Assembly: GCA_028285595.1 (NCBI GenBank)
Contig: JANQOW010000053.1
Span: forward strand, 2,079-66,078
DNA from: Hyphomicrobiales bacterium
Lineage (GTDB): Bacteria > Pseudomonadota > Alphaproteobacteria > Rhizobiales > CAJQND01
Direction of reading: 5' to 3'
Length of the DNA stretch: 64,000 nucleotides
Part shown: piece after piece, positions 7,903 to 34,888 of the stretch
Position numbering within the stretch: position 1 is the first letter of the stretch
How the letters are laid out: each line of letters opens with the position of its first letter
Made by a program: the position numbers and the translations under genes
The notes under the pieces: generated by a model
What the model saw: the letters and a program-made list of their open reading frames with translations, nothing else
Database searches by the model: none
Told to the model about the DNA's origin: nothing

Positions 7903-9725
7903 TCAAACGGTCCCTGATAGGCGCGCTCGCCGCGCTCGCTCTCCTCGCAGCCCCCGCCGCGCAGGCCGAGCCCAGCCACGGCCTCTCGGCTTTCGGAGAT
8001 CTGAAATACCCTGCCGGGTTCACGCATTTTGACTATGTGAACCCGGACGCGCCCAAGGGCGGGCGCCTGTCCATGATCGGCACCTCTGCGCGGATCACGT
8101 TCAACAGCTTCAACTATTACATCCTGAAGGGCGATGCCGCCCAAGGTCTGCCCTTCCTGTTCGACACACTGATGGTGCGTGCCTGGGACGAGCCTGATGC
8201 GGTTTACGGTCTGGTGGCCGAAACCGCCGATGTGGCCGATGACGGCCTGTCGGTCACCTTTGCTCTGCGCAAAGAGGCGCGCTTTGCAGATGGAACGCCG
8301 GTGACGGCAGAGGATGTGGCCAACTCACTCACCCTGCTGAAAGAGAAGGGCGATCCGCGCATCGCTCTCCAGCTCACCAAGATCACCAAAGCAGAGGTTT
8401 TAGGCCCGCATGAGGTGCGTTTCGTCTTCGCCGAAGCCACGCGGGATCTGCCTTTGGTGGCAGCCACCAGCATCCCGGTGTTCTCCAAGGCCTATTACAC
8501 CGAGAACGATTTCGCCAAGACCACCCTGGAGCCCCCCTTGGGTTCAGGCCCTTACAAGATCACCGACTTCAAGCAGGGCCGCTACGTGACCTTTACCCGC
8601 CGGGACGATTACTGGGCCAGGGATCTGCCGGTGAACAAGGGCCAGTTCAATTTCGATGAACTGAGATACGAGTATTTCCGCGATCGCACGGCGCAGTTTG
8701 AAGCCTTGAAAGCCGGCGCTTTCGATCTGCGCGAAGAATTCACCTCCAAGGTCTGGGCCACTCAGTATGACATCCCGCCGGTGAATAAAGGCTGGCTGAA
8801 AACCGAAACCCTGCCCGATGAGCGCCCATCCGGTGCACAAGGCTATTTCATCAATATGCGCCGGGCCAAGTTTGCCGATCCGCGGGTGCGTGAAGCCATC
8901 GGGCTCGCGTTTGATTTTGAGTGGACCAACCGCAACCAGTTCTACGAGCTCTATAAGCGCACCCACTCCTTCTTCGAAAACTCTGCCATGAAGGCCGATG
9001 GCCCCCCGTCCGCTGCAGAGCTGAAGCTGCTGGAGCCCTTAAAGGATCAACTGCGCCCGGAAGTCTTTGAAGATCCCTTCATACCGCCGGTGTCCAACGG
9101 ATCTGGCCAAGACCGCAAACTGCTGCGCAAGGCCTCGCGGTTGCTGAAGGAGGCCGGCTGGGAGGTGAAGGACGGCAAACGGGTCAACGCCAACGGTGAG
9201 GTTCTGCAGATTGAGTTCCTCTCCTTCTCTCCCACCTTTGAGCGGATCGTGGGTCCCTATATCAAGAACCTGCGCATCCTCGGGATCGACGGCAAAATGC
9301 GCCTGGTGGATCCGGCCCAATATGAAAGCCGGCGCAAGTCGTTTGATTTCGACATCACCACCAGCCGTTTCATTGTGCGGCAGACGCCGGGGATCGAACT
9401 GGAAAACTATTTCGGCTCGGCCTCAGCAAAGATCAACGGCAGCTTGAACCTTTCGGGTATTTCCAGCCCGGCCATCGATGCTTTGGTGAACAAGGCGGTT
9501 AAGGCCAAGTCCCGCGATGAGCTCAACACAGCCGCTCGGGCTTTGGACCGGGTGCTCAGAGCAGAACATTTCTGGGTGCCCCACTGGTACAAGGCCTCTC
9601 ACAACATTGCCTATTGGGACAAGTTTTCCAGGCCCGAAACGAAGCCGCGTTTTAGCCGCGGCATTATCACCACTTGGTGGTACGATGAGGCCAAAGCGGC
9701 CAAGCTGAAAGCCGCCAGGAACTGA
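7899..9725 (+). CDS. yejA: ABC transporter substrate-binding protein, family 5 (second YejA-like paralogue)
   Basis: True start MIKRSLIGALAALALLAAPAAQA at 7899, in an ATGA overlap with the upstream yejA stop. It shares motifs with the first copy (FDYVNP.APKGG, LEPPLGSGPY, YEYFRD.TAQFEA). The ORF-track start at 7746 is rejected. Confidence 0.8.
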   Translation: MIKRSLIGALAALALLAAPAAQAEPSHGLSAFGDLKYPAGFTHFDYVNPDAPKGGRLSMIGTSARITFNSFNYYILKGDAAQGLPFLFDTLMVRAWDEPDAVYGLVAETADVADDGLSVTFALRKEARFADGTPVTAEDVANSLTLLKEKGDPRIALQLTKITKAEVLGPHEVRFVFAEATRDLPLVAATSIPVFSKAYYTENDFAKTTLEPPLGSGPYKITDFKQGRYVTFTRRDDYWARDLPVNKGQFNFDELRYEYFRDRTAQFEALKAGAFDLREEFTSKVWATQYDIPPVNKGWLKTETLPDERPSGAQGYFINMRRAKFADPRVREAIGLAFDFEWTNRNQFYELYKRTHSFFENSAMKADGPPSAAELKLLEPLKDQLRPEVFEDPFIPPVSNGSGQDRKLLRKASRLLKEAGWEVKDGKRVNANGEVLQIEFLSFSPTFERIVGPYIKNLRILGIDGKMRLVDPAQYESRRKSFDFDITTSRFIVRQTPGIELENYFGSASAKINGSLNLSGISSPAIDALVNKAVKAKSRDELNTAARALDRVLRAEHFWVPHWYKASHNIAYWDKFSRPETKPRFSRGIITTWWYDEAKAAKLKAARN

Positions 9726-24307: not shown

Positions 24308-25471
24308 ATGACTGACGCGTTGGACAACACCATCACAATTCTTGAACGCCTGGTGAGCTTTGACAGTATCTCCGGTAAGCCGACCCACGGCATCGTTGGC
24401 TACATTCAGGACTATCTCTCAAGCCAGGGCGTTGAAAGCACACTGAGCTACGATGACGCCGGAGAGCGCGCCAACGTGTTCGCCACAATCGGCCCTGAAA
24501 CCGACGGCGGTGTTGTGTTGAACGGCCACACGGATGTGGTCCCCGTGGCGGGGCAGAACTGGAATTCAGACCCCTTCAAACTCACCCGCGACGGCACGAG
24601 GCTGCACGGTCGCGGTTCGGTGGATATGAAAGGGTTTTTGGCCTGTGTCCTGGGCGCCGTGCCCACCTTTCAGGCGGCAGGCCTGAACAAGCCGATCCAT
24701 ATGGCCTTCTCCTATGATGAGGAAACCGGTGGCTATGGAATGCCCGTTCTCCTGGAGCACATGGCCGGCAAGGCCTTCCGTCCGGCGGTGGTCATTGTGG
24801 GTGAACCTACGGAGATGAAGATCATTACCGGCCACAAGGGCGGCTATGAGATGCGCACCGAGATCACCGGCTTTGAGGTGCATTCATGCGATCCCTCTAA
24901 GGGGGTGAATGCCATCTCCGCGGCCATGAAGCTGATCTCGAAGATAGAGGAGATCGGCGCACGCTTCGCGGCAAACCCCTATCCCGGCTCACCCTACGAC
25001 CCACCCCACACCACCTTGAACGTAGGCATTATTGAAGGCGGCGCGGCCCGCAATGCCACGGCTGGATGGTGCAATTTCGATTGGGAGTTCCGCCCGATGC
25101 CCGGCGAAAACGGCGATGAAGTGGTGGACGAGTTGAAAGCTTACGCGGAAACAGAATTGCTGCCCCCCATGAAAGCGGTGAACGGGGCCGCTGCGATCAA
25201 CATCATCACCGAAAGCCCCGTCCCACCGCTCAACGACGCCAATGCGGCAGAAGCGGCTGCCTTTGTCAGCGAGGTCACGGGGCTCAACAGCCAGGGTGTT
25301 GTCTCCTTTGGCACCGATGCGGGCTATTTCAGCGGCGCCGGTTTCTCTACCGTGGTGTTTGGCCCCGGCAGCATCACGCGCGCGCATCAACCCAATGAGT
25401 ACATAGAGACGGGCGAGCTGGCTCAAGGTCTCGATTTCATGACAAAGATCGCACAGCGCCTCTCCCGGTGA
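24308..25471 (+). CDS. M20 family deacylase (acetylornithine deacetylase ArgE-like)
   Basis: Motifs LNGHTDVVP, HGRGSVDMKG, SYDEETGG and a C-terminal HQPNEY are typical of the ArgE/DapE M20 family. The substrate is not inferable. Confidence 0.8.
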   Translation: MTDALDNTITILERLVSFDSISGKPTHGIVGYIQDYLSSQGVESTLSYDDAGERANVFATIGPETDGGVVLNGHTDVVPVAGQNWNSDPFKLTRDGTRLHGRGSVDMKGFLACVLGAVPTFQAAGLNKPIHMAFSYDEETGGYGMPVLLEHMAGKAFRPAVVIVGEPTEMKIITGHKGGYEMRTEITGFEVHSCDPSKGVNAISAAMKLISKIEEIGARFAANPYPGSPYDPPHTTLNVGIIEGGAARNATAGWCNFDWEFRPMPGENGDEVVDELKAYAETELLPPMKAVNGAAAINIITESPVPPLNDANAAEAAAFVSEVTGLNSQGVVSFGTDAGYFSGAGFSTVVFGPGSITRAHQPNEYIETGELAQGLDFMTKIAQRLSR

Positions 25472-29144: not shown

Positions 29145-30305
29145 TCATTGAGCCAGCATGTCCACCAAGCGGGACATGAAAGCTTCTCCCTTGCGGAACT
29201 GATCGACAGTTATGAACTCATTGGGTTGATGCGCCTGGGCAATATCGCCTGGGCCGCACACCACAACAGAGTACCCGCGCTCCTGAAACTGGCCAGCCTC
29301 AGTGCCGTAGCTGACGACATTGGTGCCATTGTCACCAGTGAGCTGCCGGGCGAGCGCTTCTGCTGACCCGTCCTGCTCGGGAACCAGGCCGGGCACGTCG
29401 AACTCAGGCACTTTGTGAATGCCGGCTTCTGAGTTGATCGCTTTCATCTCAGCTTCCAGTTCAGCGATCTTTGCCTCAAACCGTCTGACCCAATCTTCGG
29501 CATGCTCTCCGGGCACGATCCGGAACTCAAGCTGGAAACGGCAATCCTTGGCGGTGATATTGTGCGCCGTGCCGCCAGAAATCTGGCCCACATGCAGCGT
29601 GGTGTAGGGCGGCACAAAATCAGCCGCCAGAGGGCTGGGCGCCTTGGCGGCGTTCTCGGCATTCACCTGATTGGCCCAGTCAATCAACTTGGCCGCCATC
29701 ATGATGGCGCTGACGCCAGTATGAACCAGCGAAGAATGCACCTCGAAGCCTCGAAAATGCATTTCATAACCTATGCTGCCCTTGTGCCCTGTGACCACCT
29801 TCATCATGGACGGCTCGCCCACAAGCACTGTATCGGCACGGGGCAAACCTCTAGACACCATATGGTCGATCATGGGTGGTGCGCCGGTACACCCGACCTC
29901 TTCATCATAGCTGAGGGCAATCTGAAGAGGCCGCTTGATATCGCGCTCCAAGGCGAGTGGCACGGCGGCAAGCGCCAGGGCATCAAACCCTTTCATGTCG
30001 CATGTGCCGCGCCCGTGAAGTTTGCCGTCACGCTCGATCACCTGGAACGGATCGGTGTCCCAATTCTGTCCTTCAATCGGTACGACATCTGTATGCCCGG
30101 ACAGAACCACGCCCCCATCCACCTCCGGACCCACATGAGCATAAAGGGCCGCCTTTGTCCCATCCGCGTTGGGGACGCGAATGGATGGGATGTCAAAGCT
30201 GTTAAGATAGGTCTCGACGAAATCGACCAGTTCCAGATTGGAGTCTGAGCTGACGGTAGGAAACGCAACCAGCTCGTCTAACAGTTCACGCGCAGTCAAA
30301 TTCAT
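29145..30305 (-). CDS. M20 family deacylase (second ArgE-like paralogue)
   Basis: Same motif set as 24308-25471 (LSGHTDVVP, HGRGTCDMKG, SYDEEVG, HQPNEF). Identity between the two is roughly 40-50% by eye. Confidence 0.8.
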   Translation of the reverse strand: MNLTARELLDELVAFPTVSSDSNLELVDFVETYLNSFDIPSIRVPNADGTKAALYAHVGPEVDGGVVLSGHTDVVPIEGQNWDTDPFQVIERDGKLHGRGTCDMKGFDALALAAVPLALERDIKRPLQIALSYDEEVGCTGAPPMIDHMVSRGLPRADTVLVGEPSMMKVVTGHKGSIGYEMHFRGFEVHSSLVHTGVSAIMMAAKLIDWANQVNAENAAKAPSPLAADFVPPYTTLHVGQISGGTAHNITAKDCRFQLEFRIVPGEHAEDWVRRFEAKIAELEAEMKAINSEAGIHKVPEFDVPGLVPEQDGSAEALARQLTGDNGTNVVSYGTEAGQFQERGYSVVVCGPGDIAQAHQPNEFITVDQFRKGEAFMSRLVDMLAQ

Positions 30306-30416: not shown

Positions 30417-31580
30417 TTACTCCGGAACAATCTCACCCGGCAGAGAATTGACCGTCATGGTCTCGCCGGGCCGGAAGTGAACAACGGACCGGATCGATTT
30501 TCCAGCCTTTAGAAGATCAAAGGCGGTGTTAATCTGGCTATGGGTCATATTGTGCGTGATGTAGGGATCAACACTGAAGTCACCGCGCATCCACTCATCA
30601 ACCATTCCCGGCAACTCGCTGCGGCCCAGCACTCCGCCAAACGCAGTACCGCGCCAGACCCGCCCCGTGACCAGTTGGAACGGTCTTGTGGAGATTTCCT
30701 GGCCGGCGCCCGCAACGCCGATGACGGTGCACTCGCCCCAACCTTTGTGGCAAGCCTCAAGCGCGGAACGCATCAGCTCCACATTCCCGACCGCCTCGAA
30801 GGTGTAATCCAGACCGCCACCTGTCATCTCTACAAGCACATCCTGGATCGGCGCATCATAGTCCTTGGGATTGATGCACTCCGTGGCGCCCAATGCTTTT
30901 GCCAGCAGGAATTTTTCCGGGTTGATATCGATCCCGATAATCTTGGAGGCGCCATTCATAACGGCACCCTGAATGACCGCCATTCCCACAGCACCCAGCC
31001 CGAACACCGCCACGCTGGCACCGGCTTCCACCTTGGCCGTATTTCGCACCGCGCCCATTCCGGTGGGCACGGCGCAGCCCATAACCGATGCTTTGGCGAG
31101 CGGTGCTTCCTTGGAGATCTTGGCAACAGAGATTTCAGGCAGCACGGTGTATTCGCTGAACGTGCTGGTGCCCATATAGTGCAGGATCTGCTTGCCCTTG
31201 TAAGAGAACCGGGAGGTCCCATCCGGCATCACTCCCGCACCTTGGGTCTGCCGGATGGTTTGGCACAAATTGGTTTTGCCCGACTTAATGTAGGGGCAAT
31301 CCGGATCCTCCGGGACGTAAAGAGGGATCACATGGTCTCCGGGCACCACGGACGTGACGCCTTTGCCCACTTCCTCAACCACCCCGCATCCTTCATGGCC
31401 CAGGATGCAGGGGAACAGGCCCTCCGGGTCTTCCCCGGATAAAGTGAATACGTCGGTGTGGCAAAGACTGGTCGTTACAATTCGGACCAGAACTTCTCCC
31501 TCCTTGGGGCCTTCAAGATCGATTTCCTCGATCTCCAGTGGACGGTTCGGTTCCCAGGCAATTGCAGCACGCGTTTTCAT
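30417..31580 (-). CDS. Class III-type Zn-dependent alcohol dehydrogenase (S-(hydroxymethyl)glutathione dehydrogenase-like) with a degenerate structural-zinc lobe
   Basis: Collinear with FrmA/ADH5-type enzymes ([22 protein letters not shown]..., [26 protein letters not shown]). Catalytic Zn ligands are retained. The structural-Zn motif CGECxFCx7C is replaced by DPDCPYIx7C. Confidence 0.85.
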
Positions 31581-31609: not shown

Positions 31610-32257
31610 TTAGTGAAGGGTCTCCTGGCTCGCCGATCCTTCAGGATCAGCAACGGGATCGAGGACCGCCACCAGCCGCGTTTCGCCAGTGCCTTCAATC
31701 GGCGGCGAGCGGTGCAGGAGGTTGGCCCCCGACCCTTCGGGCCAGAGGGAACCGCGCAGGAGGATCGGGGATCCCGTGGGCACGGTGTAAATCCGCTGAG
31801 GCGTCCCGGTTTCGGTTGAGAAGCCGTACTGCGTGCCAGTCCCCCGATAGGTGCAGATCAGGCGCGCGGAAACAGCATCTTTATGGAACTTTCGGCAAGC
31901 ATTGCTCGCAACCACGTCCAGGCGCAGCAGCAAATGCTCAACACGCATCAACTCAGCGAAGATATGGGCCAGGGCGGCAATATCATCAATCAACAGAGCC
32001 CGCTCAGCGCAGTCCGGTGTTTTGCATATCTCGCAAATATGAGACGCCGCATCCCGCACGTTTTCAGGCCGCAGGATCAATCGGGCCGACGGCAGATGTT
32101 CCGGCGCCAGCGCATCGATCCAGCTCTGAAAGGTGCGCAACGGTTGGCGAGGCCAGATGGCGGCGGCGCAATCCACACTGTGGATCACCGACAAGCCCTC
32201 AGGCGACTGCGCGACGGCGACCGCAGCTTCGGTGTCCACCTGCCCAACGAGCGTCAT
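31610..32257 (-). CDS. DUF1826 domain-containing protein
   Basis: 215 aa. The segment [24 protein letters not shown] matches my recollection of the DUF1826 signature. ATGA overlap with the stop of the upstream GTPase. Confidence 0.55.
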
Positions 32258-33471
32258 GCGGCCGTCTCAACGCGGCGCCAAGCCGGGAAAGGGTCCGGCA
32301 AGTCTGGCAGATTGTCCATGCCGTATGCCTCATCCTCAGGCACCAGAGCTGCATCCAACCGCGCTTTCAAAGCCGGCCAGTCGATGCCGGCTCCGATGAA
32401 AACAATTTCCTGACGCCGGTCGCCCCACGGTTCCTGCCAGTGAGCGGCCATGTTGGCACGCGCACTGGGGTCATCGGGCCATCGGTCTTTGGGTACTGCG
32501 GCCCACCAGGGCCCTAACGGCTGGACAGAAGACAGAGCACCTGCGAGGGAGTATTCGAGCGCCCAGTCCGGCTGGGAGGAGATCCAGAAATGCCCCTTCG
32601 AGCGGATCACACCCGGCATCGGGCCGTTCACCAGAGCGTGAATCTTCTCTGGATGAAACGGTTGCTGTGCCCGGTAGACGTAACTGGTAACTCCATACTC
32701 CTCTGTCTCCGGCGTATGATCTGCAAAGCCATAGAGCTCTTTGACCCACATGGGGTACCCATGCGCTTTATCGAAGTCGAACAGCCCAGTATCCAGAACG
32801 CGGTCGGCCGGCACGTTCGAATGGTTGGTCTCTATGATCTCCGCATCGGCGTTCAAGCTCCGGATAATCTTGCGCGCGGCATCGACCTGATGAGGCTCGG
32901 CGTCGTCAACCTTGTTCAAGATCACCACATCGGCAAACTCAATCTGATCGGTAAGCAGGTGCACCAGCGTGCGCTCATCTTCCTCGCCCATGGTCTCGCC
33001 GCGATCCTGCAGGAAATCGTGGCTGGAAAAGTCCTTGAGCAGGTTCACCGCGTCTACCACCGTGACCATCGTGTCCAGGCGGGCAACATCCGACAGGCTC
33101 TCCCCGTTCTCATCGCGGAACTCAAAGGTCGCTGCAACGGGCAAGGGCTCTGAAATGCCTGTCGACTCGATTAGCAGGTAGTCAAAGCGCCCCTCGGCGG
33201 CCAGACGCCGAACCTCGGCCAAAAGGTCATCTCTCAGGGTGCAACAGATGCAGCCGTTGGACATCTCTACCAGGGTCTCATCGGTTCGGCTGAGTTCTGT
33301 GTCCGCCCGAACCAGATCGGCATCGATGTTCACTTCCGACATGTCGTTGACAATGACCGCAACGCGGCGCCCTTCCCGGTTATTGAGGACGCGGTTCAAA
33401 AGGGTCGTCTTACCCGCACCGAGAAATCCAGACAGAACGGTGACAGGAAGTCGTTTTTCTGACGTATTCAT
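32254..33471 (-). CDS. zigA: G3E-family (COG0523) metallochaperone GTPase, ZigA/YeiR-like
   Basis: P-loop [12 protein letters not shown], metal-binding [10 protein letters not shown] (CxCC), ESTGISEP and the NKVD motif. The long C-terminal CobW_C-type extension gives 405 aa. Confidence 0.85.
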
Positions 33472-33585: not shown

Positions 33586-33609
33586 AAAATTGTTACGTTA
33601 TAACATCAC
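33586..33609 (-). promoter_or_regulatory. Candidate Zur box in the zigA promoter region
   Basis: AAAAT-TGTTACGTTATAACA-TCAC, a 7-1-7 dyad resembling the enterobacterial Zur consensus GAAATGTTATAWTATAACATTTC. It contains the perfect palindrome GTTATAAC. It lies about 120-135 nt upstream of the zigA ATG and overlaps a possible -10 (TATAAC on the minus strand). Confidence 0.5.
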
Positions 33610-33686
33610 TTTTCTCAAGTGAATTCTTGAGATAATCCCGCGCAAACCCATCATGTGGATCGGGACAACAGACACAAAGGGATAGC

Positions 33687-33757: not shown

Positions 33758-34888
33758 TTAGAGCGCCTCGTGATAGAGCCGCTCATAGTCTTCGGCCGTC
33801 GCCTCACGCGGATTGGTGCGATGGGCGAGGTCAGCCAGCGCATGGTCAATGCATGGCGCAATCATGGCCTCTTCGACACCCATCTCCGACAGGCTCTTCG
33901 GCATACCGATCGACTGGTTCATGCGCTCAATCTCGGCGGCCAGATCTGCACCGGGTGCAAGGCCCATCGCCGTCCGCAGGCGTTCGTACTTCTCAGCCGG
34001 AGCGGACCCCTCGTTGAAGCGCAAAACGGACGGCAATAGCACGGCGTTTAGCGTGCCGTGATGCAGTCGCGGTTCAGAAAGACGGCCCAACGCATGGCTC
34101 ATCGCATGCACTGCGCCAAGTCCCTTCGGGAATGCCAGCGCACCTTCCGTGGAGGCCATCATCATTTCCCATCGCGCAGTGCGGTCAGAGCCTTCATGCA
34201 CAGCCCGCTCAAGATGCCGCCATCCACGCCACAGCCCATCAAGCGCGACACCGTCCGCCGGTGGGTTCACACTCGGCGAGAGATATCCTTCGATACAGTG
34301 GGTAATCGCATCCATGCCGGTGCCCGCTGTGATGGCGGAGGGAAGCCCAAGCGTCAGCTCAGGATCACATACGGCCGCGATCGGCACGAAACGTGGACCG
34401 CCAAAGGCAATCTTTCTTCCATCATTCAGCACAATAACAAAGCCGACGGATACCTCCGACCCGGTTCCCGATGTGGTTGGTACCGCCACAACAGGCGCAA
34501 TATCTTTCACATGGCGGTTGCCGCCGGCAAGCGGGTCGTATGTTGCCAGTTCACCGCCGCTCCCTGCCAGAAGCGCCACGCCCTTACCCAGATCCATGGC
34601 CGAACCGCCACCCAGACCCAGGACACCATCACAATCGGCGGCCTTGTAGACCTCAAGCGCTGCAACGGTTGCTTCCTCGGTCGGGTTCCCGGGGGTTTCG
34701 TCATAAACTGCCGCAGAGACAGCATCCCCCAGCACGTCTTTGACCGTATCGAGAATGCCGGCAGCCACAACGCCCTTATCGGTCGTGATCAGTGGTCGTT
34801 GCACCCCGGCACGCGAAAGCACCTTTGGCAGCATCTGCACGGCGCCAAAATCAAAATGTGTGGTTGTCAGATAAGTAAGTAACGCCAA
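33758..34888 (-). CDS. Iron-containing (group III) alcohol dehydrogenase
   Basis: 376 aa with the GGGS motif (LGLGGGSAMD) and metal-binding His cluster (AVHAMSHALG...HHG). Confidence 0.85.
   Translation of the reverse strand: MALLTYLTTTHFDFGAVQMLPKVLSRAGVQRPLITTDKGVVAAGILDTVKDVLGDAVSAAVYDETPGNPTEEATVAALEVYKAADCDGVLGLGGGSAMDLGKGVALLAGSGGELATYDPLAGGNRHVKDIAPVVAVPTTSGTGSEVSVGFVIVLNDGRKIAFGGPRFVPIAAVCDPELTLGLPSAITAGTGMDAITHCIEGYLSPSVNPPADGVALDGLWRGWRHLERAVHEGSDRTARWEMMMASTEGALAFPKGLGAVHAMSHALGRLSEPRLHHGTLNAVLLPSVLRFNEGSAPAEKYERLRTAMGLAPGADLAAEIERMNQSIGMPKSLSEMGVEEAMIAPCIDHALADLAHRTNPREATAEDYERLYHEAL

What the first reader, a model, noticed from the sequence alone, without database searches (positions are those of the whole stretch)
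31263..31310. Class-III-type ADH has lost two of the four structural-zinc cysteines while keeping the catalytic site
Seen in sequence: the minus strand of 31263-31310 translates to [16 protein letters not shown]. Established knowledge: in FrmA/ADH5-type enzymes this lobe reads (Q/E)-C-G-E-C-x-F-C-x7-C, and its four Cys (equivalents of Cys97, 100, 103 and 111 of horse liver ADH) bind the structural Zn. Here the alignment gives Cys97 to Asp, Cys100 retained, Cys103 to Ile and Cys111 retained. The flanks align without gaps (HVIPLY... and ...[20 protein letters not shown]). The catalytic ligands are intact: C in LCHTD, H in GHEG, C in MGCAVPTG. Inference: this enzyme probably binds one Zn per subunit instead of two. 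Given its position behind a zigA-like gene, it could be a zinc-sparing paralogue, analogous to the C-minus ribosomal proteins, DksA2 and FolE2. I am not aware of a zinc-sparing ADH having been described.
Basis: partly seen in the sequence, partly recalled or inferred. Interest (0 to 1): 0.65.

Follow-up and report, generated by a model that had tools for sequence, protein, structure and literature searches.

The report
Low-zinc formaldehyde dehydrogenase isozyme
This gene encodes a glutathione-dependent formaldehyde dehydrogenase that has lost its structural zinc site and sits in the cell's zinc-starvation (Zur/ZigA) operon, which probably lets many alphaproteobacteria run this enzyme on half the usual zinc.

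Summary
Window 30417-31580 (-) encodes a 387-aa class III ADH (TIGR02818, 636 bits) whose lobe reads [16 protein letters not shown]. Structural-zinc Cys97 and Cys103 (horse numbering) are Asp92 and Ile98; Cys95, Cys106 and the catalytic Cys40/His62/Cys169 are kept.

This is a discrete, monophyletic subfamily. 195 distinct sequences (81-93% identical to each other, at most 70% to canonical enzymes) all carry Asp92 and Ile98 plus an 18-residue C-terminal tail. All 233 canonical relatives examined have four Cys.

The gene is third in an operon: Zur box, zigA, DUF1826, ADH. The only strong Zur-box match in the 64 kb overlaps the zigA promoter. In 80 related genomic loci, ZigA and/or DUF1826 lies directly upstream in 63, and Zur boxes are about 45-fold enriched upstream. 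FghA is never nearby. When the variant stands alone it has its own Zur box 35-50 bp upstream. Seventeen canonical loci have no zinc genes and no Zur boxes; nine have fghA. One Gluconobacter plasmid carries both forms in separate operons.

The zinc-sparing reading is well supported by comparative genomics. Metal stoichiometry, regulation and ZigA dependence are untested. I found no prior description.

The parts
33592..33609 (-). Zur box (GTTACGTTATAACAT on the + strand, overlapped by its inverted partner)
   Evidence: It scores 22.7 bits with a weight matrix built from the five P. denitrificans Zur sites of PMC5387054 Table 7, whose own scores are 22.2-24.8. It matches the pden4140 site at 14/15 positions. 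It is the only strong match in the 64-kb window on either strand.
33589..33618 (-). Sigma-70-like promoter (TTGAGA, 18-nt spacer, AACAAT) whose spacer and -10 element are covered by the Zur box
   Evidence: Consensus scan, (9/12 matches). The geometry is that of a classical repressor site. This is a consensus match only, not shown to be functional.
32254..33471 (-). zigA, a COG0523 zinc metallochaperone GTPase and first gene of the operon
   Evidence: NF038288 ZigA scores 600.1 bits (cut-off 600); Pfam cobW plus CobW_C. The GCICC metal-binding motif is visible in the translation.
31610..32257 (-). DUF1826 gene; its start overlaps the zigA stop by 4 nt
   Evidence: PF08856, E = 1.2e-50. A homologue lies directly upstream of the variant ADH in 57/80 related loci.
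30417..31580 (-). Variant class III ADH / S-(hydroxymethyl)glutathione dehydrogenase, starting 29 nt after DUF1826
   Evidence: TIGR02818 scores 635.8 bits. The AF2 model has pLDDT 86.6 and matches human GSNOR 3QJ5 with TM 0.91-0.95.
31263..31310 (-). Degenerate structural-zinc lobe, E91-C106 (D92 = codon 31305-31307, C95 = 31296-31298, I98 = 31287-31289, C106 = 31263-31265)
   Evidence: The consensus in 195 sequences is P-E-D-P-[NDE]-C-P-[YF]-I-[KRQ]-S-G-K-T-N-L-C.
31074..31463 (-). Span containing the intact catalytic zinc ligands C40 (31461-31463), H62/E63 (31392-31397) and C169 (31074-31076)
   Evidence: These residues are invariant in variant and canonical sequences.
30420..30473 (-). Clade-specific C-terminal tail, residues 370-387 (T374, M375, L380, P381, G382 conserved)
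   Evidence: It is absent from all canonical sequences. It is conserved in the clade. AF2 pLDDT is 81-89. Its function is unknown.
29145..30305 (-). ArgE-like M20 deacylase 111 nt downstream; operon membership uncertain
   Evidence: NF005710 scores 481.7 bits. No terminator-like site lies between it and the ADH. It is absent from all 80 related loci, so it is not part of the conserved unit.

Best explanation
The gene encodes a low-zinc-quota isozyme of glutathione-dependent formaldehyde dehydrogenase/GSNO reductase that belongs to the Zur (zinc-starvation) regulon. When zinc is sufficient, Zn-Zur sits on the box that overlaps the zigA promoter and keeps zigA-DUF1826-adh silent. When zinc runs short, the operon is derepressed. 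The enzyme keeps the catalytic Cys-His-Cys zinc site and the glutathione-binding residues, so it performs the same reaction. Its structural Cys4 zinc site has been replaced by a metal-free lobe: Cys to Asp92, Cys to Ile98, new prolines at 93 and 96, and possibly the new C-terminal tail. It would therefore need one Zn per subunit instead of two. The co-expressed ZigA GTPase probably supplies that one zinc. Shown here: the sequence facts, the clade structure, the synteny and the Zur-box association. Inferred: repression by Zur, one Zn per subunit, unchanged substrate, and metallation by ZigA.
For: Lobe and catalytic site. D92 and I98 are invariant in 195 distinct sequences, and the clade is 81-93% self-identical but only 58-68% identical to canonical enzymes. 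PLSDB hits are bimodal, with 10 records at 80-85% identity and the rest at 70% or below. The clade is monophyletic and nested among canonical bacterial class III ADHs. All 233 canonical sequences have four Cys. The window has a single 22.7-bit Zur box overlapping a promoter-like site upstream of zigA. The genes are tightly packed (4-nt overlap, 29-nt gap). In 80 GTDB loci, DUF1826 is directly upstream in 57, ZigA in 38, either in 63, and FghA in 0; other zinc genes (zur, znuABC, aztABCD, DUF1007, folE, hisI) appear in 29. Zur-matrix hits occur at 0.173/kb in the 3.5 kb upstream, 0.062/kb downstream and 0.004/kb in shuffled sequence. Where the ADH is monocistronic (P. versutus pTAV3, Sagittula, Skermanella), a Zur box lies 35-50 bp before its start codon. 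In Gluconobacter the operon is Zur box, folE, hisI, zigA, ADH, carbonate dehydratase. In 17 canonical loci there is no ZigA or DUF1826 and no Zur hit in 176.5 kb; 9 have FghA, and others have GFA, xoxF or hxlAB. Both paralogues sit on G. sphaericus pSJF2-a. By the gapless alignment, window T42, D51, E53, Q107, R110 and K279 correspond to the human ADH5 glutathione-contact residues Thr46, Asp55, Glu57, Gln111, Arg114 and Lys283 (residue list from memory of the 1MC5 work). One search lists T42, D51, E53 and R110 as invariant across variant and canonical sequences; one search shows Q107 and R110 at 100% in the variant clade.
Against: There is no metal, expression or activity data. Asp92, Cys95 and Cys106 are conserved, so a weaker Cys2-Asp(+Glu91/water) site cannot be excluded. 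A carboxylate at the first ligand position is compatible with zinc binding in archaeal ADHs (Sulfolobus Glu98, from memory), and several of the 150 diverse representatives have E/K/Q/R/G plus three Cys. About 12 of 80 variant loci show no ZigA, DUF1826 or Zur box nearby. Only about half of the loci with enough upstream sequence give a hit with the Paracoccus-derived matrix. A canonical copy in this window's own genome could not be sought; there is none, and no fghA, in the 64 kb. The saving is only half, because the enzyme still needs catalytic zinc. The lobe has lower AF2 confidence (pLDDT 69-75), which says nothing either way about metal.
Confidence: 0.7

Rival explanations
1. The enzyme is a chaperone client, not a zinc saver. 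The lobe still binds a metal through Asp92, Cys95, Cys106 and a fourth ligand. The enzyme is in the Zur operon because it is a priority client that ZigA (with DUF1826) metallates when zinc is scarce, so the zinc quota per subunit is unchanged.
For: C95 and C106 are 99.5% conserved, and D92 and E91 are invariant. The catalytic zinc site is intact. The gene is tightly linked to ZigA and DUF1826 in variable gene orders. Other genes in the Gluconobacter Zur operon (type IA FolE with CEHH, HisI, gamma-CA) also keep their metal ligands.
Against: The second substitution is always the hydrophobic, non-ligand Ile. Two new prolines suggest a rigid, metal-free loop. Single natural variants lose C95 (to Asp, locus L009) or C106 (to Ser). 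62.5% of all positions are at least 98% conserved in this young clade, so retention of the two Cys is weak evidence. A three-ligand site would be far weaker than Cys4 and would be empty precisely under zinc starvation.
Confidence: 0.15
2. The enzyme is a neofunctionalised dehydrogenase. The clade has taken on a different substrate or role, for example one linked to the unknown chemistry of DUF1826, and is not a back-up for AdhC.
For: FghA is never adjacent (0/80). Clade-specific changes flank the catalytic ligands (T36, S38, S165, A170, P172) and the Rossmann motif (A197, V198, M200), and there is a new C-terminal tail. DUF1826 is the most constant neighbour (57/80).
Against: The protein scores well above the TIGR02818 equivalog cut-off. 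The window residues that align with the human glutathione- and formaldehyde-adduct-contact residues are all present, and one search lists T42, D51, E53 and R110 as invariant across variant and canonical sequences. The fold is that of GSNOR. DUF1826 accompanies COG0523 genes in many genomes that lack this ADH (PMC2770081, PMC5387054).
Confidence: 0.12
3. The gene is a passenger or a product of drift. The lobe degenerated neutrally and the gene merely happens to lie near zinc genes, with no zinc-dependent regulation.
For: About 15% of loci have no detectable zinc context. All regulatory evidence is in silico.
Against: The new lobe sequence is invariant across 195 sequences from several alphaproteobacterial orders. 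A Zur box lies directly in front of monocistronic copies. The contrast with canonical loci is strong (Fisher p about 6e-10; the loci are not independent).
Confidence: 0.03

Closest known systems
Canonical class III ADH / S-(hydroxymethyl)glutathione dehydrogenase / GSNOR (E. coli FrmA, Cereibacter AdhI, human ADH5)
   Same: Same fold (TM 0.91-0.95 to 3QJ5), 58-68% identity, and the same catalytic Cys/His/Cys(Glu) site. The window residues aligned to the human glutathione contacts are present. It scores above the equivalog cut-off.
   Different: Two of the four structural-zinc Cys are replaced (Asp92, Ile98). There is an 18-aa C-terminal tail, and about 15 clade-specific substitutions. It lies in Zur/ZigA operons rather than next to fghA, gfa, frmR or a LysR regulator.
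DksA2 (Zur-regulated paralogue of DksA lacking the Cys4 zinc finger; Pseudomonas)
   Same: It is a paralogue in a Zur/COG0523 cluster in which a structural Cys4 zinc site has lost Cys residues while function is retained (established knowledge; listed among Zur-regulated paralogues in PMC2770081).
   Different: DksA2 becomes completely zinc-free. This ADH would still need its catalytic zinc, so the saving is partial. It belongs to a different protein family, and no experiments exist for it.
C-minus ribosomal proteins (L31B/RpmE2, L36B/RpmJ2, S14B) of Zur regulons
   Same: Loss of structural zinc-ribbon cysteines in a Zur-repressed duplicate; the classical zinc-sparing logic (PMC6103462, PMC5007448).
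   Different: These are non-enzymatic proteins that become wholly zinc-free, and they also act to mobilise zinc from the replaced proteins.
ADH isozyme switching under zinc deficiency (S. cerevisiae Zap1: ADH1/ADH3 down, ADH4 up; proposed for S. pyogenes AdcR)
   Same: Replacement of an abundant two-zinc MDR alcohol dehydrogenase by a cheaper isozyme when zinc is scarce (PMC2535606, PMC4288194).
   Different: There the substitute belongs to a different family (iron-type ADH). Here the substitute is the same family and reaction with only the structural site removed. The regulators also differ (Zap1/AdcR versus Zur).
MDR dehydrogenases that naturally lack the structural zinc (mammalian sorbitol dehydrogenase, Thermoanaerobacter/Clostridium secondary ADHs); Sulfolobus ADH with Glu as first structural ligand
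   Same: They show that the MDR fold can be stable with a metal-free lobe, and that the first ligand position tolerates a carboxylate (from memory; first-ligand variation is also seen).
   Different: They are different subfamilies and substrates, and the loss is not known to be a regulated low-zinc alternative to a zinc-containing twin.

Membership tests
Class III ADH / S-(hydroxymethyl)glutathione dehydrogenase (TIGR02818 equivalog) | Profile score above the curated cut-off over the full length | tested here: met
   635.8 bits against a cut-off of 543.95, covering residues 2-369 of 387.
Class III ADH / S-(hydroxymethyl)glutathione dehydrogenase (TIGR02818 equivalog) | Catalytic zinc ligands Cys46, His67 and Cys174 (plus Glu68), horse numbering | tested here: met
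   C40, H62, E63 and C169 are invariant.
Class III ADH / S-(hydroxymethyl)glutathione dehydrogenase (TIGR02818 equivalog) | Glutathione-binding residues (Arg115, Asp57 and others; human Thr46, Asp55, Glu57, Gln111, Arg114, Lys283) | tested here: met
   Window T42, D51, E53, Q107, R110 and K279 align with them without gaps. One search lists T42, D51, E53 and R110 as invariant; one search shows Q107 and R110 at 100% in the variant clade. The residue list is from memory.
Class III ADH / S-(hydroxymethyl)glutathione dehydrogenase (TIGR02818 equivalog) | Structural zinc site Cys97/100/103/111 | tested here: not met
   The window has D92, C95, I98 and C106. 233/233 canonical sequences have four Cys. 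All solved class III structures listed are canonical-type enzymes.
Class III ADH / S-(hydroxymethyl)glutathione dehydrogenase (TIGR02818 equivalog) | NAD-dependent oxidation of S-(hydroxymethyl)glutathione / reduction of GSNO | not testable with these tools
   Requires an enzyme assay.
Zur regulon member | Zur box in the promoter of the transcription unit | tested here: met
   A 22.7-bit match at 33592-33606 overlaps the promoter-like site and is the only one in 64 kb. The same applies in relatives, including boxes 35-50 bp before monocistronic copies.
Zur regulon member | Zur binding and derepression under zinc limitation | not testable with these tools
   Requires EMSA or ChIP and RNA measurements. 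In P. denitrificans the homologous COG0523-hypothetical operon (pden1338-1340) is induced 8-13-fold, and Zur binding to promoter DNA was examined by EMSA (PMC5387054).
Zur-regulated zinc-sparing paralogue (DksA2 / C-minus ribosomal protein type) | Loss of zinc-ligand residues relative to the housekeeping form | tested here: met
   Two of four structural ligands are replaced, invariantly. The catalytic site is kept, so any sparing is partial.
Zur-regulated zinc-sparing paralogue (DksA2 / C-minus ribosomal protein type) | A zinc-containing canonical paralogue in the same genome | tested here: inconclusive
   Shown on G. sphaericus pSJF2-a: the variant in the Zur operon plus a 4-Cys copy (61% identity) in hxlB-hxlA-adhC 10 kb away. 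G. albidus also has two places. The window's own genome could not be searched; the 64 kb holds no second copy.
Zur-regulated zinc-sparing paralogue (DksA2 / C-minus ribosomal protein type) | Lower zinc content of the protein | not testable with these tools
   Requires ICP-MS or a crystal structure.
ZigA-type COG0523 metallochaperone (neighbouring gene) | NF038288 score at or above cut-off, G3E GTPase domain, CxCC motif | tested here: met
   600.1 bits against a cut-off of 600 (borderline); cobW plus CobW_C; GCICC is present in the translation.

The most novel reading that the evidence does not exclude
The variant ADH is more than a cheaper isozyme. It is a dedicated physiological client of ZigA. 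The conserved zigA-DUF1826-adh module would be a self-contained metallation system in which ZigA, perhaps with DUF1826 as adaptor, loads the single catalytic zinc, and the clade-specific C-terminal tail and remodelled lobe form the docking surface. This would give bacteria a defined COG0523 chaperone-client pair, comparable to ZNG1-METAP1 in eukaryotes.
Probability: 0.25. Interest if true: 0.8.

Novelty: new member of a known kind. Interest (0 to 1): 0.6.

Why it matters
Zur-controlled replacement of zinc proteins by low-zinc duplicates is a central bacterial answer to zinc scarcity. The known list is short: ribosomal proteins, DksA2, FolE2, PyrC2, HisI, CA, HemB and a few tRNA synthetases. 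It contains no medium-chain dehydrogenase.

This case would add a widespread enzyme found in hundreds of marine and soil alphaproteobacterial species, often on plasmids or chromids. It would also illustrate an intermediate strategy: drop the structural zinc and keep the catalytic one.

Current annotation pipelines give it the same name as the canonical enzyme, so the distinction is invisible in databases.

The enzyme still needs one zinc and is almost always encoded beside ZigA and DUF1826. That makes it a concrete, assayable candidate client for a bacterial COG0523 metallochaperone, whose targets are still largely unknown. It also gives a handle on the uncharacterised DUF1826 family.

Tried and rejected
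(1) Canonical copy in the same genome. The exact-sequence look-up of the window protein found nothing. Species names in the three protein searches did not overlap usefully between variant and canonical lists; the third query, recalled from memory as Paracoccus FlhA, turned out to be 99% Cereibacter AdhI. Only the Gluconobacter plasmids gave a direct answer.

(2) Independent degenerate-lobe lineages. The exhaustive representative search returned 150 representatives, 115 of them with four Cys. The few odd ones are fragments, frameshifted copies of this clade (P0484), or unrelated oddities. No second solid lineage was found, but 50% clustering merges the variant with canonical enzymes, so this test is weak.

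(3) AF2 geometry of the lobe and tail. Only pLDDT and secondary structure are returned and no coordinates are accessible. I could not measure side-chain distances or see where the tail packs.

(4) DUF1826 function. There is no NCBIfam or PHROG match. A profile search of PDB sequences found nothing below E = 0.7. The single-sequence AF2 model is unusable (pLDDT 40.8).

(5) M20 gene as part of the unit: rejected, because it is absent from all 80 related loci.

(6) Window as a known plasmid: only 73-77% matches to isolated genes.

(7) Literature. I found no paper linking Zur or COG0523 with a class III ADH lacking structural cysteines. The 2018 review sentence about 'zinc-free paralogues ... alcohol dehydrogenase' (PMC6103462) names no such enzyme; its table lists adhA and adhP, not this family.
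Full report
OBSERVATION

The minus strand of 31263-31310 translates to [16 protein letters not shown]. It lies in a 387-codon ORF at 30417-31580 (-). The protein scores 635.8 bits against the NCBIfam equivalog TIGR02818, S-(hydroxymethyl)glutathione dehydrogenase/class III ADH (cut-off 543.95), and has the two Pfam MDR domains.

phmmer against all PDB sequences gives human ADH5/GSNOR and plant GSNORs as best hits (E about 1e-153). The alignment is gapless over residues 2-368. In it, window D92, C95, I98 and C106 face the four structural-zinc cysteines (horse-liver numbering 97, 100, 103, 111). C40, H62/E63 and C169 face the catalytic ligands.

By the same alignment, window T42, D51, E53, Q107, R110 and K279 correspond to the human glutathione contacts Thr46, Asp55, Glu57, Gln111, Arg114 and Lys283 (that residue list is from memory). 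One search lists T42, D51, E53 and R110 as invariant across variant and canonical sequences. One search shows Q107 and R110 at 100% in the variant clade.

An AlphaFold2 model built from 126 homologues has mean pLDDT 86.6; the lobe is at 69-75 and the C-terminal tail at 81-89. The model superposes on GSNOR structures with TM 0.91-0.95.

A DISCRETE SUBFAMILY

- All 120 best database hits (82-93% identity) carry P-E-D-P-x-C-P-[YF]-I-x-S-G-K-T-N-L-C, apart from a few single-residue variants and one unmatched sequence.
- All 80 loci retrieved from one-genome-per-species GTDB contigs carry it where the lobe could be read (79 of 80).
- Among 195 distinct sequences, D92 and I98 are 100% conserved. C95 and C106 are each 99.5% conserved, with one Asp and one Ser exception. 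P93 (99%) and P96 (96%) are also highly conserved in the clade.
- Two sets of canonical relatives (113 and 120 sequences) have four Cys without exception.
- tblastn against 72,556 plasmids is bimodal. Ten records are 80-85% identical over the full 387 residues. Everything else is 70% or below and stops at residue 369-371.
- Besides D92 and I98, the clade differs from canonical enzymes at T36 and S38 (next to Cys40), T138 and S165 (both replacing Cys), A170 and P172 (flanking Cys169), A197, V198 and M200 (Rossmann motif), W330, H347 and L357. It also has an 18-residue C-terminal tail with conserved T374, M375, L380, P381 and G382.
- A neighbour-joining tree places the clade as monophyletic and nested among canonical bacterial class III enzymes. 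This implies one duplication followed by remodelling and spread.
- Members occur in Hyphomicrobiales, Rhodobacterales, Rhodospirillales and Acetobacteraceae, and repeatedly on large plasmids.

GENOMIC CONTEXT IN THE WINDOW

On the minus strand the order is as follows:
- an Fe-type ADH (33758-34888);
- a 286-bp intergenic region;
- zigA (32254-33471; NF038288 scores 600.1 against a cut-off of 600);
- DUF1826 (31610-32257; a 4-nt overlap with zigA);
- the ADH (29-nt gap);
- after 111 nt, an ArgE-like M20 gene.

I built a weight matrix from the five Zur sites that Neupane et al. report for Paracoccus denitrificans (PMC5387054, Table 7). Scanning the whole window on both strands gave a single strong site, GTTACGTTATAACAT at 33592-33606. 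It scores 22.7 bits against 22.2-24.8 for the training sites and is identical to the pden4140 site at 14/15 positions. It overlaps the spacer and -10 element of the only promoter-like match on that strand (TTGAGA, 18 nt, AACAAT). No terminator-like site lies between zigA and the ADH. The window holds no second class III ADH, no fghA and no zur or znu genes.

CONTEXT IN RELATIVES

Variant loci (80 GTDB loci):
- A DUF1826 homologue lies directly upstream of the ADH in 57, a ZigA homologue in 38, and one or both in 63.
- 29 also contain zur, znuABC, aztABCD, DUF1007, folE or hisI homologues. None contains fghA within about 8 kb.
- Zur-matrix hits of at least 17 bits occur at 0.173/kb in the 3.5 kb upstream of the ADH, 0.062/kb downstream and 0.004/kb in shuffled sequence.
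- 31 of 57 loci with at least 2.5 kb of upstream sequence have at least one hit. The hits sit where a promoter for zigA, DUF1826 or the ADH would be.

Annotated plasmids give a clear picture:
- In Paracoccus versutus pTAV3 the gene lies in a zinc island (DUF1826, two COG0523 genes, DUF1007, aztABCD).
- In Sagittula stellata it lies next to zur-znuABC.
- In Skermanella the order is ADH-zigA-DUF1826, beside aztD.
- In these three the ADH has its own Zur box 35-50 bp before the start codon.
- In Gluconobacter albidus and G. sphaericus the operon is Zur box, folE, hisI, zigA, ADH, carbonate dehydratase, with DUF1826 and a Fur-family regulator divergent.

Controls (17 loci around canonical 4-Cys enzymes, from 4 plasmids and 13 places for three proteins):
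- None contains ZigA or DUF1826, and there is no Zur hit in 176.5 kb.
- Nine have fghA. The rest sit with gfa, cytochrome c and xoxF, or LysR regulators.
- These loci are not independent, so the Fisher p of 6e-10 is only indicative.

G. sphaericus pSJF2-a also carries a canonical 4-Cys copy (370 aa, 61% identical) 10 kb from the variant, in an hxlB-hxlA-adhC formaldehyde operon. The two forms are thus true paralogues with separate regulation on one replicon.

INTERPRETATION

The most economical reading is that this is a Zur-repressed, low-zinc isozyme of glutathione-dependent formaldehyde dehydrogenase. It keeps the chemistry: the catalytic site, the glutathione contacts and an equivalog-level score. 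It replaces the structural Cys4 zinc with a metal-free, proline-stiffened lobe containing an invariant hydrophobic Ile where a ligand used to be. That would halve the zinc cost per subunit.

The enzyme still needs one zinc and is co-transcribed with ZigA. It is therefore also a plausible client of that chaperone. The two ideas are compatible, and I fold ZigA delivery into the main hypothesis as an inferred step. The absence of fghA suggests the variant relies on the housekeeping locus for the second step of the pathway. This fits a back-up role.

CAVEATS

- Nothing here measures metal content. An Asp/Cys/Cys site (plus Glu91 or water) could bind zinc weakly. Archaeal ADHs use a carboxylate at the first position, and several diverse representatives vary that position while keeping three Cys.
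- The two remaining Cys are conserved, but so are 62.5% of all positions in this young clade.
- About 12 of 80 loci show no zinc context.
- The Zur matrix comes from one genus.
- A canonical copy in this window's genome could not be checked.
- The M20 gene downstream is not conserved with the unit.

COMPARISON WITH WHAT IS KNOWN

The logic is that of the C-minus ribosomal proteins and DksA2. Zinc-dependent switching between ADH isozymes is known in yeast (Zap1: ADH1/3 to ADH4) and proposed for S. pyogenes (PMC2535606, PMC4288194), but there the substitute is an iron-type ADH. MDR enzymes without structural zinc exist (sorbitol dehydrogenase, TbADH) but not as regulated twins.

Haas et al. (PMC2770081) list Zur-linked paralogues without any ADH. 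The P. denitrificans zinc transcriptome paper mentions no dehydrogenase. Targeted full-text searches found no description of this subfamily. Source annotations name it identically to canonical AdhC.

I therefore rate it a new member of a known kind. The twist is that only the structural zinc of a two-zinc enzyme is dispensed with.

VERDICT

- Observation: confirmed.
- Interpretation: supported by strong comparative-genomic evidence; biochemical proof is outstanding.
- Confidence in the main explanation: 0.7.
- Interest: 0.6.
- Most novel reading not excluded: a defined ZigA(-DUF1826)-ADH chaperone-client module, with probability about 0.25.

Noticed in passing
window 31610-32257 (-); alignment A2: DUF1826 is the most constant neighbour of the variant ADH (57/80 loci). 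Its invariant residues include W35, R37, D92, F124, R132, C135, Y137, G141, T161, H182, R183 and D200. The pattern F-H-x-D ... H-R-S-P-P resembles a His/Asp/His metal triad. It has no sequence relative in the PDB, and its function is unknown.
   Followed up: partly
window 30420-30473 (-), ADH residues 370-387: The variant has a clade-specific 18-residue C-terminal tail (T374, M375, L380, P381, G382 conserved; AF2 pLDDT 81-89) that is absent from every canonical class III ADH. It might brace the zinc-free lobe or serve as a docking site.
   Followed up: partly
window 33758-34888 (-); also L025, L038, L042: An iron-type ADH (4-hydroxybutyrate dehydrogenase, NF058672, 520.7 bits) ends 152 bp upstream of the Zur box. 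Homologues at 52-55% identity lie next to the variant ADH in three other loci that lack ZigA or DUF1826 directly upstream.
   Followed up: no
window 29145-30305 (-) and 24308-25471 (+): The window has two ArgE-like M20 deacylase genes (44% identical). One lies 111 nt downstream of the ADH with no terminator-like site between them. M20 enzymes are themselves zinc/cobalt enzymes, so this copy might be co-transcribed from the Zur promoter in this organism. It is not conserved in relatives.
   Followed up: partly
L083 3616-7742 and L089 27147-31273 (Gluconobacter plasmids): A Zur-box operon, folE-hisI-zigA-ADH-gamma-type carbonate dehydratase. The FolE is the zinc-dependent type IA (CEHH motif kept), and HisI and the CA also keep metal-ligand-like residues. 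These Zur-regulated duplicates are therefore not simply ligand-free.
   Followed up: partly
L009 (ADH at 8001-9161) and one database sequence: Rare natural variants lose a third cysteine of the lobe: PEDPNDPYIK has C95 replaced by Asp, and ...KTNLSQSIR has C106 replaced by Ser. This suggests the two remaining Cys are not strictly essential.
   Followed up: no
L038, L042, L044, L050, L078, L079 and others: About 12 of the 80 variant loci have no ZigA, DUF1826 or detectable Zur box near the ADH. In some lineages the variant may be regulated differently or may have become the only copy.
   Followed up: partly
ADH residues 297-315 (window about 30636-30692): AF2 gives pLDDT below 50 for a stretch ([12 protein letters not shown]...) that is almost invariant in all class III ADHs. 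This is probably an artefact of modelling a monomer, since these would be dimer-interface strands.
   Followed up: no
L081 (P. versutus pTAV3) and L082 (Sagittula plasmid): A GlxA/AraC-family regulator is transcribed divergently from the monocistronic variant ADH, with the Zur box in the shared intergenic region. Similar regulators also occur near some canonical adhC loci (L088, L098, L101, L102).
   Followed up: no
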